From Nostoc sp. DedSLP01 (GTDB lineage Bacteria; Cyanobacteriota; Cyanobacteriia; Cyanobacteriales; Nostocaceae), in the NCBI GenBank assembly GCA_034530875.2, contig JAVRCJ020000005.1, positions 96,001 to 160,000 of the forward strand: a stretch of DNA of 64,000 nt. The letters are read 5' to 3'. The position numbers are program-made. Below are positions 33,001 through 39,000 of this stretch, one piece after another (within the stretch, counting starts at the first letter, position 1; each line of letters opens with the position of its first letter).

Positions 33001-36000
33001 GCTTGACGTTGTGCGGTATCTACAGACACAATAATATCGCCTAGATATAACGGTACAGAAGCAAGCATTTCTTCGCTTTGAGGAAAATCTACCTCCAAAG
33101 CAGCAAAAGCTAATACGTCTGTGGGCTGATTTTTTTGACGATACTGGGCATTTAGTTCCTGAATTTGCGAGTCATCTGTCAAACGCAGCCCAATCTCATA
33201 ACCTGACGCTGGTGGAATGTGAGGGTGAAGTATTTCCAACCAGCAATTAAACCACTCTTCCCAAGTTTCAGATGTAATTCGAGGATGAGTGTCGCTAAAA
33301 TTTACCGACGTTGTTGGCGACAACTCGTCAAAATAATTTTCCACATACAATTCAACTCCCAGAACCACGCAGTCTCCTAATCTGAAGTCACAGTTTTTCG
33401 TTAGCGAGTTAGGTAAGCAAGACCAATCAGGACAGCTAAAAGCCCTATAGTGGTTAACGCAAAATGTTTTAAGGAAGTTCCGCCCTTACGTACCATATTT
33501 CGCATGGCGAGTTTTACGTAACTAGGTTGGGGTTCTGATGAAGGAGAGTTACTCATAGTTAGTTCGATCGCGGATTCTTTTATAACTGTAACAGTTGGCT
33601 CTGCGATAGGATTGCGATCGCTAAAGGCGGGGCATAGTCCATCGCGCCAATCTTCAAATACTCAAAAAATAATCGGTACTAAATAATAGTAAAAATTATT
33701 ACTTAGTACCGATAATTAACTGCCAATTAAGCAGGAGTATTTTCCACTAGCTTATTTTCTTGTCGCAGATAAGCTTGGATGAAGGCATCAAGTTCGCCAT
33801 TCATCACATCTGTAATCCCTGTTGTTTCCGTATTTGTACGTAAATCTTTCACCATTTGGTAAGGATGAAACACATAGTTCCGAATTTGGTTACCCCAGGA
33901 GGCTTCCACCATATCGCCACGAATTTGGGCAATTTCTTGGGCGCGTTGTTCTTGGGCAATAACTAGTAGTTTTGCTTTGAGTCGAGCGAGAGCTTTTTCT
34001 TTATTTTGCAGCTGCGATCGCTCTTCTGTACAACGCACGGCAATTCCTGTAGGCAGGTGAACAACCCGTACAGCCGTTTCTACTTTGTTGACGTTCTGTC
34101 CGCCTTTACCACCAGAGCGAGTTGTGGTGATTTCCAAATCTTTCTCTGGAATATCCAATTGCACAGAATCATCTATTTGGGGCATTACTTCCACCCCTGC
34201 AAAACTAGTTTGTCGCTTGCCATTGGCATTAAACGGCGAAATTCTCACCAAGCGGTGCGTGCCTGTTTCCGACCGCAAGTAACCGTAAGCATAGCGACCA
34301 GTAATTTCTAGGGTTGCCGATTTAATTCCCGCTTCATCACCCTCTGACTCTTCAGCTAAAGTTACCTTGTAGCCGTGAGCTTCAGCCCAGCGCGTGTACA
34401 TACGCATCAGCATAAATGCCCAGTCTTGGGCATCTGTACCACCAGCACCAGCATTAATTGTCAGTACAGCACCTTCAGCATCATAAGGGCCGGAAAGTAA
34501 CTGTTGTAACTCCCACTGGTCAAGGTCGCGATTCAGTTGAGTGATGGTAGATTCCGCTTCTTGCAATAGTGCTTCGTCGGTTTCTAACTCCAACAGTTCG
34601 ACAACTGCCTTAGTATCTTCCAGACTGCTTTGCCACTGTTCGTATTGCTGGAGGTGGCTTTTTAAGTCGTTGAGTTCTTGCAGCGTTTTTTGGGCTTCGG
34701 GTTGATTATTCCAAAATTCTGGTTGGGCAGATATTTGTTCTAGGTCTTGAATTTTAGCTGTCAGTGCAGGTACGTCAAAGATAGTCCTGGGTCTTACCCA
34801 GGCGGCTAGACAACGTTTCAATTTCGCGTTTGAGTTCTAAAACTTCCATAGTGCTTGCTAAATTTAGAGATTGAGCGCTTTGGATTGGTAAATTGCTCTA
34901 TATTTTACTTATCTTTTTTGATTTTAGCTGTAGTTGGGCAAATTCTCTTGGGAGGGCTGAATATTAAGTGACCAAAATTACTTTAAATTCTTTAGAAGTT
35001 ATTTGCTGACCGCAGTGGTTTGATTTTGTTGTATGGAGGCTTTGAGAAACAAATCGATTTCACCGTCCAAAACGTCTGTCACAGCAGTAGTTTCAAGTTT
35101 GGTACACAGATCCTTTACTTTTTTATAAGGATGTAAAACATATTCTCTAATGAGCTTTTTGGATAAAGATTTTATTTGCCAGGGTTGAATTTCGTTAACT
35201 TGCTGGACACCTTGAGCTAGTGCGATCGCCAACAGTTTACTCTTGAGAATAGCTAAACCTTTCTCTTTGCTTTCTAGCTGACGCCGCTCTTGGTTGCAAA
35301 ATACACTAATCCCAGTAGGAATGTGCAACACTCGCACCCATGTTTCTGGACGGTTGACACTACCTTGTGGGCGTGGCACAGTAATTTCCAAATCTTTTTC
35401 TGGAATCTCAAACTCCACAGACTTATCCAGAATTGGGCTAACTTCTACAGTAGCTTGGTAAGTATATCTCCTGCCATTGCCACGAACAGGAGAAATCCGC
35501 ACTATTTTTGTATGAGTTCCTTGTTCCGATTTTAGTCAGCCATAGGCATAACGCCCTGTAATTTCTAGGGCATAACTAATGGTATCTTTATCCCTATCAT
35601 TAATATCTAGAAAACATACCTGATGTAAGTGACTTAACCCCCACAAATAATACATTCGTAATAACATAGATGACCAATTTTGGGTTTCTATGTCACTAAC
35701 TTTAGCAGTAATAGTTACTAATGCTCCCTTTGAATTGTAGGGATTAGACAATAACTGCTTTATTTCTGGTGTTTCGATTTCTTGCTGGAGTTGAGCTAAG
35801 TTAATTTGAGTCTCTTGCAGTAATTGCTCGTCAACTAATGATTCCAAAAGTTCTAGAGCAGCCTTGATATCTTTTAAGATAGAGAGCGATCGCTGATATT
35901 GTTCCTGCCTTCTAGATATAAGATATTTGATTTTCTCAGACGTCTGATGAGCAGTAGCTAGATTTTCCCAAAAAGCCGTTTTAGCGATTAGCTGATTTAG

Positions 36001-39000
36001 GTAGTGAATTATTCCAGTAAAATATCGCAGGTCAAAGACAGTCCTCTGTTTTGCCCAAGATATTCGACAACCTTTCTACTTCTATTTTGAAATTTAACAG
36101 TTCGAGCATAGTTTTGCTCCCTTAAATCTGAACTTATGTAGACATTTTACTGGTAAACAGATGAAAAAAACCGTGGTTGAATTTTTAGCAACCACGGTTT
36201 TAGTTTGTAAAACTTTACTTCTGTACTAGTACGTACAGATAATTAATCGCGGCCATTAAGGGCAATTAGCAACCGCAAAATAAAGATGAATAGGTTGATG
36301 TAAGTCAGGTACATCGATAAAGCAGCAGGCAAATATTGATCGTTACTGTAAGTGCGCGGCAAGATATAAAAATCAACAACTGAAGCGCCAACAAACAGAA
36401 ACACGCCCAAACCTGAGATAGCGATTTCTAACCAAGATGGTGTATAAACACCAAATAAGCTAAATGCAAATTGCGTCAGGCAGACAACCACCAAGGCAAT
36501 GATACCGAGATTGATGGTTTTCGTCAAAGCCATGCCATCTTGTTCGGAAAGATTTGAACCAATTTGACGGGCTGCTATGAAGGTGACGCCACAACCAAGG
36601 GCAGCTAAACCAATGCCTTGAATGCCAACGCCTTGAGTTCTCAAGGCGAGGAACACCAAACCACTGAGAGTGTATCCAGATAAAAGGCTGTAGGTTGCTA
36701 GCAGGGGTAATGCCAAACCCTTGTTACCTTTTTCAGCAACATTTTGGGCAACAAAGAACAGAATCAACTCCAAAATCACCGCACCAATGAAGGTAGGAAA
36801 GAATATTCCGGGATTAGTACGGATAATTCCCAAACCTCCGTATGTTCCCAATGCAGTTATTACCAGCCCGCCACCGACGTAGGGGAGGGCGTTAGCAATC
36901 ACATTGGGGCCGACGAGTGCGTGAGATTTCGCCTCACGGATAGCTTCACGAAAATTGCTGGTATTGCTCATATTGAAAAACTAGTTTTTGAGGACAATGT
37001 TCTGCTTATTCCTATTCTTACCAAGATTTTGCACGATAAGCCAGGGAGGGGTTACCTAAGGTAACGGACAACTAAATAAAAAAGATTATGGTCTATTGAA
37101 ATTTTTATCCGCAAAACAAAAATAATTAGCAAAATAGCAAGCCACAAAATCATGCGTACAAATACTGAATTATAGACTGCGACCCCTTGTAAGTTCAGTG
37201 AAACGACGATGGCTTATTCAGTCTTGGCTAAGGAAAATAATTACAGTCTAAAAGAATATATACGCAGCTCCATTTTTTAATAAATAGGAGTTACAACAAA
37301 GGAATTTATATGGCAGCAAGTGAGTCCTCTTTACGAACTGATGGTATAGAATTATTACACTTGTACCACCAGAATCCATCTATTAAACTTCGTAATAAAC
37401 TTGTACAGTTACATACTGGCTTAGTACGGAAGATGGCTCATAAATTCAGCCATCAATGTAATGAACCTTATGAAGATTTAGAACAAATTGGTTATTTTGG
37501 TTTAATTAGAGCAATTGAGCGTTTCGATCCTAGCCAAGGATATGCTTTTAGTTCTTTTGCTGTGCCGTATATTCGCGGTGAGATGTTGCACTTTTTACGC
37601 GATCGCAGTACTCTATTAAAAATTCCTCGTCGTTGGCAAGAACTGTACAATGAAGGACAAAAGGTACGCAAAGAATTATCTGTATCTTTAGGCCGTCCTG
37701 CTAAAGATGCTGAAATTGCCAAAGAACTCCGTGTATCTCTGCAAGAATGGCAAGAAACCAAGTTGGCTGCTCAAAACCGTTTGCCTTTAAGTTTAGATGC
37801 GACGGCAGTTAATTACGTTGATTGTCAAATTACTTTGGGTGAAGCACTTCCTTGCCCTCGTTCTACTGCCCAACAACAACTAGACGAAGAACGCCAACAA
37901 CTCCAAGGGGCAATTAATATGTTAGAAGAAAAGCCCCGCATGGCAGTTGAAATGGTCTTTTTAAAAGAACTTTCTCGCAAGGATGCTGCTAAGAATATTG
38001 GCACTAGCCCGATGACAGTAACGCGGTATTTACAAAAAGGAATTCAGGATTTAATTTGCTATTTACAACCACAAGTTATGCCCACTGGATCTTGATTTTA
38101 TTTATGAGAGGGATGAAGAATATAAAGGGAATAAGATTATGACTTCCCCGGAAACAAAGACTAATCTTATGCCTTGGCAATGGGCTTTGATTGGTTCTGG
38201 TTCTACGGTGATACTTGCACTTGCAGGTTTAGGACTCTGGAACTTAGTTGCATCAAAATCTCCTAGCAATTCTTCTACCTCGGGTGCTTCAAATACCAAT
38301 TTAGAAAATATTACTATTAAACGCTTAGTCGGTCAGTGGCAGCAAAAAGATTCAACTAGGCTCATTTTTACTCCTGAAGGAAAGCTATTTGTTATACCCT
38401 CTAATTCCAACGAGGCTATTGAATCGCGCTATCAAGTAAATGATGCGACTCAACCAAATCAATTAACTATATTAACTCTTGGTAATCAGATTTCGCGAAC
38501 AGTAATTTTTGATTTTATATCAGATAATCAGTTACGAATTGATAAAAGTGCATCTGCAAACTCTAGAGAATTCAGCTCGAATACACAATTGTTTCAGAAA
38601 GTATCTGATGTGACGTCACTTCCTTTAGGGATTGCACTCGTAGGCGAGGAAGCGCTACTAAAGCAAGCCAACAAAGCGAAAGAATCAGAGGCAAAACAAT
38701 ATGTCGGTGCGATGAATCGCGCACAACAAGCGTTCTTTTTGGAAAATAATCAGTTCGGCTCAGACCTTGATAAGTTGGGATTAGGCATCAAATCCAATAC
38801 GGAAAACTATACTTAGAGTGTCGTTACAATTGATGATAAGCATGTTGTCCAGAATGTAGGATTAGCAAAAACAGAAGGTCTTAAAAGTTATACAGGTATA
38901 GTTTTTATAAAATCTGTTGGGACGGAGACAACTACTTTTGCTAAACTCTGTAAAAGTATTGAGCCAACTCGGAAAATACCACCACAAGTACAGTTATCAA

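What a model noticed while it worked through the whole genome (the two positions that open the first line are those of the whole stretch)
34999..36110. GGQ-less RF2 paralog with frameshift site plus conserved in-frame UGA
Directly upstream of prfB (g01431) lies a second RF2-like gene (called as two fragments g01433+g01432, minus strand). It has lost the catalytic GGQ loop, keeps the prfB-type +1 frameshift site CUU UGA C after codon 25, and carries a second in-frame UGA C at codon ~192 (GRYAYG-UGA-LKSEQ). The same UGA C at the same codon is kept in many Nostoc species and the 3' half stays under purifying selection, so the gene is not a pseudogene: its synthesis needs two failures of RF2-dependent termination, a likely sensor of RF2 activity.
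Evidence so far: Sequence read in calls 61,64. Paralog found in 81/127 Nostoc species genomes incl. this one and in 5 of 80 other genus-sampled Nostocaceae genomes, next to prfB here and in 4 of those 5. 34 of the 81 matches hold an internal TGA; of 51 loci read, 23 have TGA-C at the identical aligned codon, the rest TAC(20)/TGC(3)/other(5); 50/51 keep CTTTGAC; 50/51 lack GGQ. Pairwise NG86 dN/dS downstream of the UGA in the 23 carriers 0.30 vs 0.38 upstream and 0.35 in non-carriers. Quick ML tree of the 51 paralogs: the UGA state needs only 1 change (0/500 label shuffles as low); carriers span the deepest split while all 28 sense-codon genes form one derived clade (SH-aLRT 83), so the UGA looks ancestral an [...]
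(Added by a program. Inside this text positions count along the whole contig: contig position 96,001 is position 1 of the stretch shown here. "Call 12" and the like, gene names such as g00115 and contig names such as C1 are that model's own, and its searches are not shown. The text may have been shortened before it was handed on; [...] marks where a part breaks off. The agent that wrote the report below was given it as the finding of a first reader that could run no searches.)

Follow-up and report, generated by a model that had tools for sequence, protein, structure and literature searches.

The report
Doubly recoded dead release-factor copy
Many Nostoc cyanobacteria keep a catalytically dead copy of the protein that ends translation, in a gene that ribosomes can finish only by slipping frame at one stop codon and reading through a second, which suggests an undescribed, tightly rationed factor tied to translation stress.

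Summary
Confirmed. Upstream of prfB lies a GGQ-less RF2 paralogue (369 aa when recoded, 172/376 identical to RF2) with the prfB-type +1 site CUU UGA C after codon 25 and an in-frame UGA C at codon 191. The same UGA occurs in 36 of 85 readable Nostoc copies. Downstream of it omega is 0.35-0.40 (neutral control about 1), no further stops accumulate (0/9 and 0/23 versus about 8 and 21 expected), no restart codon is conserved, UAA never replaces it, and there is no selenocysteine machinery. Read-through (probably Trp) is the best reading; no protein evidence exists. Corrections: the UGA is derived (0 of 34 non-Nostoc paralogues), arose on the Nostoc stem and was lost about 8 times, so it looks like a tolerated leaky attenuator; an 'RF2 sensor' is unproven. 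New: the family spans Nostocaceae; one genus keeps an RF1-type UAG at the shift site (9 of 16 copies), reported absent from 8,164 prfB genes; 16 of 34 non-Nostoc promoters carry the box of the translational-stress repressor TrcR (degenerate in this window). The product's function is inferred, not shown.

The parts
36243..36971 (-). Upstream neighbour, Bax1-I/YccA-family membrane protein
   Evidence: Pfam PF01027 107.9 bits
36168..36200 (-). Terminator-like hairpin followed by a T run, closing the upstream gene; present in most relatives
   Evidence: read from the sequence; not listed by the scanner, whose loop limit is 8
36144..36149 (-). -10-like hexamer at a conserved position; in many relatives it lies inside a TrcR-type box that is degenerate here (8 mismatches)
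   Evidence: function inferred
36117..36123 (-). Purine-rich ribosome-binding site 7 nt before the ATG
36035..36109 (-). Paralogue ORF0, codons 1-25
36031..36046 (-). prfB-type +1 frameshift cassette: SD-like GAGGAC, TGT, CTT TGA C
   Evidence: of 80 Nostoc sites parsed 76 TGA and 4 TAA; 2 more have TAG
35539..36033 (-). +1 frame, residues 26-190: RF2 domain 1 and first part of domain 2 (PCRF)
   Evidence: omega about 0.48
35535..35538 (-). In-frame TGA plus C, recoded codon 191, putative read-through site
34999..35535 (-). Residues 192-369 and TAA: rest of domain 2, GGQ-less domain 3, domain 4
35485..35493 (-). SPV in place of the SPF stop-recognition motif
35353..35379 (-). Shortened loop in place of the GGQ catalytic loop
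33727..34849 (-). Genuine prfB (RF2, 373 aa) with shift site CTT TGA C at 34780-34774 and GGQ at 34104-34096
   Evidence: TIGR00020 485.8 bits, cut-off 370
32835..33368 (-). Downstream neighbour ybeY

Best explanation
A live but dispensable gene for a catalytically dead RF2 mimic, made in small amounts by two recoding steps. Shown: anatomy, loss of GGQ, purifying selection on both sides of the UGA, single gain of the UGA on the Nostoc stem. Inferred: ribosomes shift +1 at CUU UGA C as in prfB (controlled in trans by real release factors, since the product cannot terminate); at codon 191 most then stop, and a minority insert Trp (or Cys) by near-cognate decoding and finish the 369-aa protein. 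The UGA C acts as a leaky attenuator: it must stay leaky (UAA not tolerated) but can be traded for a sense codon. Output will rise when termination is weak, as a consequence and not necessarily as the selected purpose. Most likely role of the protein (my odds about 0.35; decoy for RF2-targeting agents about 0.25; PrfB3-like RNA binder about 0.15): a ribosome-binding, non-hydrolysing RF2 competitor of the translational-stress response, kept scarce because it would hinder termination.
For: omega downstream/upstream of the UGA: 0.40/0.48 in a 9-genome all-UGA clade, 0.35/0.48 in 23 other carriers, 0.48/0.43 in 33 sense-codon copies; all reject omega=1. Five-genome all-UGA clade holding this window: 0.39 downstream, 2dlnL 23; the window's own branch 19 N/15 S, about 0.5, p=0.035; neutral simulations give 0.87-1.21. 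Stops downstream 0/9 and 0/23 against 8.2 and 21.1 simulated. Codons 192-203 omega 0.27 and no conserved restart codon. TGA to TAA 0 of 36, about 3.6 events expected; the following Leu codon never becomes TTR (0 of 33) while 11 of 12 other CTR-Leu columns do. Residues at the site elsewhere are Y, C, F, L, W, so Trp/Cys fit; in E. coli TGA is read as Trp, then Cys, and TGA>TAG>TAA in leakiness (PMC11126739, passages). The UGA lies in a helix before strands needed for the domain 2/4 sheet of an RF2-fold model. TrcR-type box in 16/34 non-Nostoc and 6/80 Nostoc promoters versus 0/4959 background windows.
Against: No transcript, ribosome-profiling or peptide evidence. omega is far above prfB (0.10/0.018). 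The gene is absent or below threshold in 37 of 127 Nostoc genomes and often broken (7 of 36 carriers, 7 of 49 sense copies by my reading; 6 more have lost the site). Four of 36 carriers were left out of the omega and stop-count tests as incomplete; three of them are damaged downstream of the UGA. The empirical control for the missing TAA is weak alone (7 of 35 G-majority synonymous sites also show no A). No conserved stimulatory RNA structure. Recombination blurs trees and rates. The TrcR box is degenerate in this window. Stop-recognition loops vary widely, so ribosome binding is not guaranteed.
Confidence: 0.55

Rival explanations
1. Dedicated two-step termination sensor: the second UGA is positively kept so that the protein appears only when RF2 activity falls, with a steep response.
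For: UGA C kept across the deepest split in Nostoc and in 9 of 9 genomes of one clade; TAA never seen and +4 C kept; the family also keeps RF1-type TAG shift sites, with TAG and TGA copies in tandem in 3 genomes, which fits sensing of release-factor activity.
Against: TGG reversions 2-5 against about 1.6 expected; 49 of 85 Nostoc and 34 of 34 other copies lack the UGA; no expression data.
Confidence: 0.2
2. Two-piece gene: the 190-aa N-terminal product and/or a separately initiated C-terminal protein are the functional forms; no read-through.
For: A GTG/ATG 12 codons after the UGA exists in this window and in 10 of 36 carriers; domain 1 is a helical bundle that could fold alone.
Against: Most carriers have Glu/Lys/Ile there and no ATG/GTG/TTG for 35-53 codons, two have none in 60; codons 192-240 are still constrained (omega 0.28-0.39); a plain stop should drift to TAA; the cut splits the domain 2/4 sheet.
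Confidence: 0.12
3. A slowly decaying pseudogene allele whose apparent constraint comes from recombination with intact sense alleles.
For: Extensive mosaicism; frequent broken copies and remnants; high omega.
Against: Constraint holds in clades with no known sense allele and on the window's own branch; damage is no commoner in carriers than in sense copies (Fisher p=0.77, run with 47 instead of 49 sense copies); shift cassette and -10 position are conserved.
Confidence: 0.1
4. UGA decoded as selenocysteine, by a cognate suppressor tRNA, or under a changed genetic code.
For: In-frame UGA at a position where Cys occurs in relatives.
Against: No SelA (genome 99.8% complete), no tRNA-Sec over the cut-off, no UCA-anticodon tRNA among 74 and TGA ends 586 of 3048 long ORFs; no conserved hairpin.
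Confidence: 0.02

Closest known systems
Bacterial RF2 (prfB) and its autoregulatory +1 frameshift
   Same: PCRF + RF-1 domains, RF2 fold, SD-like-CTT-TGA-C cassette, 46% identity to the neighbouring RF2
   Different: No GGQ, variable SPF and alpha5 loops, so the shift cannot be autoregulatory; TAG shift sites occur (0 of 8,164 prfB genes, PMC12421855 section 6); second in-frame UGA; dispensable, fast-evolving, mosaic
Plant chloroplast PrfB3
   Same: RF2 duplicate that lost GGQ and SPF and took another job (petB mRNA stabiliser; PMC5897788, passages)
   Different: Nuclear plant gene without recoding; this family sits beside prfB in bacteria and often keeps SPF (54 of 111); common descent not tested
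PrfH
   Same: Bacterial class-I release-factor paralogue tied to RNA repair (recalled; PMC1586002 seen as listing only)
   Different: TIGR03072 33.9 bits against cut-off 166.65; this protein keeps domain 1 and lacks GGQ
Conserved in-frame stops in bacterial genes (Belinky et al., PMC7918605, abstract)
   Same: In-frame stop with dN/dS below 1, read as read-through that lowers expression
   Different: Here one specific UGA C is held across a genus and is combined with a programmed frameshift in the same gene
TrcR regulon of Anabaena PCC 7120 (trn array, rtcB)
   Same: Promoter box over the -10 in many relatives
   Different: Box degenerate in this window; the paralogue is not among the release-factor rows of the PCC 7120 table

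Membership tests
RF2 (prfB, TIGR00020) | Score over the curated cut-off 370 | tested here: not met
   257.7 bits; neighbour prfB 485.8
RF2 (prfB, TIGR00020) | GGQ catalytic motif | tested here: not met
   absent here; present in 2 of 111 paralogues
RF2 (prfB, TIGR00020) | SPF stop-recognition motif | tested here: not met
   SPV here; SPF in 54 of 111
RF2 (prfB, TIGR00020) | PCRF and RF-1 domains, RF2 fold | tested here: met
   model pLDDT 76, best match E. coli RF2 1gqe E=9e-24
RF2 (prfB, TIGR00020) | +1 shift cassette (SD-like, CTT, stop, C) | tested here: met
PrfH | TIGR03072 cut-off; no domain 1; GGQ kept | tested here: not met
   33.9 vs 166.65 bits; domain 1 present; the PrfH features are recalled
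PrfB3-like dead release factor | Loss of GGQ and SPF | tested here: met
   true of this gene; SPF kept in about half of the family
PrfB3-like dead release factor | Binds and stabilises a specific mRNA 3' end | not testable with these tools
   needs experiment
PrfB3-like dead release factor | Orthology with plant PrfB3 | not tested
   no plant sequence was fetched
Selenoprotein | SelA, tRNA-Sec and a SECIS hairpin | tested here: not met
Programmed stop-codon read-through | Conserved stop with coding constraint continuing in frame and no restart codon | tested here: met
Programmed stop-codon read-through | Stimulatory RNA element | tested here: inconclusive
   +4 C kept; no conserved structure
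Programmed stop-codon read-through | Full-length protein detected | not testable with these tools
   no proteomic or profiling data found
TrcR regulon | TrcR-type box over the -10 | tested here: inconclusive
   not met in this window (8 mismatches); met in 16/34 non-Nostoc and 6/80 Nostoc promoters, background 0/4959
TrcR regulon | Derepression without TrcR or under ribosome antibiotics | not testable with these tools
   PCC 7120 table holds a single RF2 row
Pseudogene | Neutral evolution and accumulating stops | tested here: not met

The most novel reading that the evidence does not exclude
Heterocyst-forming cyanobacteria carry a family of pseudo-release factors whose genes are wired as gauges of termination failure: transcription freed by the translational-stress repressor TrcR, a +1 shift that reads RF2 (UGA) or RF1 (UAG) activity, and in Nostoc a second UGA gate read through by Trp, perhaps by the bulged-stem tRNA-Trp of the stress-induced tRNA array. 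The dead factor then occupies or shields terminating ribosomes, or decoys agents aimed at RF2, and its exposed loops are swapped between species as old haplotypes.
Probability: 0.2. Interest if true: 0.88.

Novelty: new variant of a known kind. Interest (0 to 1): 0.68.

Why it matters
Programmed read-through of a chromosomal bacterial stop outside selenocysteine/pyrrolysine is rarely documented (own knowledge), and I found no report of a gene that stacks it on a programmed frameshift. The family separates the prfB shift cassette from autoregulation: a product that cannot terminate keeps it, even with the RF1 stop that prfB never uses, which makes the cassette a portable gauge of release-factor activity. 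Natural UGA, UGG and UAC alleles in close relatives give a ready test of whether leaky stops are selected regulators or tolerated lesions. It also adds a bacterial parallel to plant PrfB3 and a candidate member of the cyanobacterial translational-stress response; annotation splits the UGA alleles into fragments and labels the others only 'PCRF domain-containing protein'.

Tried and rejected
Selenocysteine, suppressor tRNA and altered code: rejected. Gene conversion from the adjacent prfB as source of TAC alleles: rejected, their flanking codons are paralogue-type. TGG as ancestor with repeated nonsense changes: rejected, outgroups have TAC/TGC and no TAG is seen at the site. Stimulatory hairpin: z -1.45 here, mean z -0.4 in 30 carriers, no consensus structure. 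The published TrcR IUPAC pattern was too loose to decide (41 of 4959 background windows within 1 mismatch); the trcR-promoter core was used instead, chosen after I noticed the likeness. Window-by-window omega showed no segment above 1 (highest 0.64-0.70, codons 27-60), so diversifying selection is not shown. Expression data: PCC 7120 table has one RF2 row only (one supplementary PDF unreadable). One search returned no omega (parsing slip; redone in 28). Sigma-70 scan gave no excess over shuffles. Earlier scan findings: three look-ups empty. The ESM Atlas gave only PCRF/RF2 clusters. No complex prediction was run.
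Full report
Observation. The finding is in the sequence as described. On the minus strand, between a Bax1-I-family gene and prfB, an ATG at 36109 opens 25 codons ending in CTT, followed by TGA C (36034-36031) and preceded by GAGGAC at the spacing of prfB's CAGGAC. 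The +1 frame continues to TAA at 35001-34999 with one internal TGA C at 35538-35535, codon 191 of a 369-residue recoded protein, aligned to the Tyr of RF2's GRYAYGYL. Identity to the neighbouring RF2 is 172 of 376 columns. GGQ is gone with a shortened loop and SPF is SPV. With TGA read as W the post-shift part folds as RF2 (pLDDT 76; best match E. coli RF2, E=9e-24, TM 0.59). The stop lies in a helix ahead of strands that complete the domain 2/4 sheet.

Distribution. 90 of 127 Nostoc genomes have two or more matches at E<=1e-40 (my count of the table). I read 91 copies: 89 of those 90, and remnants in 2 of 6 single-match genomes. 85 cover the site: TGA 36 (35 followed by C), TAC 31, TGG 6, Leu 5, TGC 3, four single others. 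In a sample of 262 other genomes of the family, paralogues occur in eight genera; of 34 copies aligned none has TGA; they have Tyr, Cys or Phe. Among 383 genomes of the class outside the family, 4 had a second match and one, G411, is a GGQ-less tandem copy with the same TGT CTT TGA C cassette. GGQ survives in 2 of 111 near-full-length copies, SPF in 54. Databases name the sense alleles 'PCRF domain-containing protein'.

History of the UGA. On a whole-gene tree of 111 paralogues with the site left out, the 77 Nostoc copies form one clade (support 0.99) whose root state is TGA; the tree needs 9 stop/sense changes, 8 inside Nostoc. On the tree of the neighbouring prfB genes one Nostoc clade is 9 of 9 TGA and the other mixes TGA, TAC, TGG and Leu alleles. 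The region around the site falls into three old haplotypes, two of which also occur in other genera; synonymous diversity there is about twice that of prfB or more. So the UGA was gained once on the Nostoc stem from TAC or TGC, and lost by point reversion to TGG (2 to 5 events) and by recombination. A short local tree places one TAC outgroup among carriers, so a single gain is likely, not certain.

Is the 3' half translated? Codon-model omega, upstream/downstream: 0.48/0.40 in the 9-genome clade, 0.48/0.35 in 23 other carriers, 0.43/0.48 in 33 sense copies, 0.32/0.31 in 26 outgroups, 0.10/0.018 for prfB; each rejects omega=1. In the five-genome all-UGA clade that holds this window it is 0.39 downstream, and on the window's own branch about 0.5 (19 N, 15 S, p=0.035); neutral simulations give 0.87-1.21. 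Extra stops downstream: 0 of 9 and 0 of 23 against 8.2 and 21.1 simulated; upstream 0 of 9 and 3 of 23. These tests used 32 of 36 carriers; the four left out are a downstream frameshift, a downstream deletion, a contig break downstream and an upstream frameshift. Damage overall is 7 of 36 carriers and 7 of 49 sense copies by my reading (Fisher p=0.77, run with 47). The gene is thus constrained but dispensable in both states.

How is the UGA passed? Not as selenocysteine (no SelA, no tRNA-Sec) nor by a cognate suppressor or changed code. Not by a conserved restart: GTG/ATG at +12 occurs in 10 of 36 carriers, most others have none for 35-53 codons, yet codons 192-240 stay constrained (0.28-0.39). 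A plain terminator should drift to TAA: 0 of 36 did, against about 3.6 events from fourfold-site rates; the empirical control is softer (28 of 35 G-majority synonymous sites show an A). The next codon's C never became T in 33 CTR codons while 11 of 12 other such Leu columns did. TGAC is the rarest stop tetramer in this genome (59 of 3048) and is described as a poor terminator (PMC12421855 section 5). In E. coli TGA is the leakiest stop, read as Trp then Cys, more so in cold and poor media (PMC11126739, passages). No stimulatory structure is conserved. Near-cognate read-through is therefore the best reading (about 0.75 with the sensor variant included); it is inferred, not observed.

Attenuator or sensor? 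Reversion to TGG runs at or above the neutral expectation of about 1.6 events, and most of the family lacks the UGA. What selection demonstrably forbids is a tight stop, not a sense codon. I therefore favour a tolerated leaky attenuator that rations a protein likely to hinder termination, over a dedicated sensor. One fact helps the sensor idea at the first site: the cassette is kept by a product that cannot regulate itself, and in genus g67 9 of 16 shift sites read (of 19 paralogue matches) are CTT TAG C; in 3 genomes a TAG copy precedes a TGA copy. Two Nostoc copies also have TAG. A survey found no TAG among 8,164 prfB shift sites (PMC12421855 section 6).

Link to translational stress. A -10-like hexamer is conserved 35-45 bases before the ATG. 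In 16 of 34 non-Nostoc and 6 of 80 Nostoc promoters it lies in a box within 2 mismatches of the reverse complement of the motif bound by the repressor TrcR (PMC10272220 sections 7 and 8); 0 of 4959 upstream windows of this genome do. The exact motif occurs once here, before a 111-aa protein with a weak ribbon-helix-helix match. TrcR-type repeats control the tRNA array and rtcB under ribosome-targeting antibiotics (PMC8421152, passages). In this window the box is degenerate (8 mismatches), and PCC 7120's table lists one RF2 only, so regulation is inferred for the family, not for this gene. Promoters are related, so the counts are not independent.

Function of the product. The structural core of RF2 is conserved while the GGQ loop, SPF loop, alpha5 tip and switch region vary. 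It cannot release peptides and probably reads no fixed stop. I rank: non-hydrolysing ribosome-binding competitor in stress (0.35), decoy for RF2-directed toxins or phage proteins (0.25; mosaic loops, gain and loss, but no window with omega above 1), PrfB3-like RNA binder (0.15), other.

Comparison and novelty. It is not an RF2 or PrfH by curated cut-offs. It works most like plant PrfB3 in being a dead RF2 duplicate (PMC5897788, passages); common descent was not tested. Conserved in-frame stops with dN/dS below 1 are known in general (PMC7918605, abstract). Ten full-text searches (listings) and passages of PMC6514570, PMC13245932, PMC3711429 and PMC13092985 showed no description of this family or of its double recoding; the library lacks most subscription papers, and supplements of those papers were not read. 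Verdict: real, new variant of a known kind, interest 0.68.

Noticed in passing
L228:1849-1923 (G000:C8, tRNA array); L230-L259: The array tRNA-Trp(CCA) has one extra, bulged base in the 5' strand of its anticodon stem, unchanged in 28 of 30 Nostoc loci read, with one variant and one not found; the array promoter has three TrcR-type repeats. A possible stress-induced UGA reader; 4-bp-stem tRNA-Trp raises UGA read-through in E. coli (PMC13092985, passages). Speculative.
   Followed up: partly
L260, L261, L271 (G382, G371, G311): Tandem pairs of GGQ-less paralogues before prfB, the first with an RF1-type TAG shift site and the second with TGA.
   Followed up: partly
L091, L111; proteins P0015, P0033, P0048, P0061: Paralogue alleles that carry a GGQ loop unlike the adjacent prfB's, with SPF: possibly active release factors within the family.
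   Followed up: no
L225 (G411): A GGQ-less tandem RF2 copy with the whole loop deleted and the same shift cassette, outside Nostocaceae.
   Followed up: partly
L139, L140, L133, L134, L147-L150: Remnants and broken copies upstream of prfB show repeated recent loss of the paralogue.
   Followed up: partly
G000 contigs C21, C9, C6: Good matches to the published TrcR repeat pattern lie before genes that look like an RNA 2'-phosphotransferase, an ABC transporter and an AAA ATPase (names recalled from the N-terminal sequences, not tested).
   Followed up: no
window 30260-30602 and 42074-42495: Low-complexity short tandem repeats in intergenic DNA, of the kind common in heterocystous cyanobacteria (seen; label recalled).
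   Followed up: no
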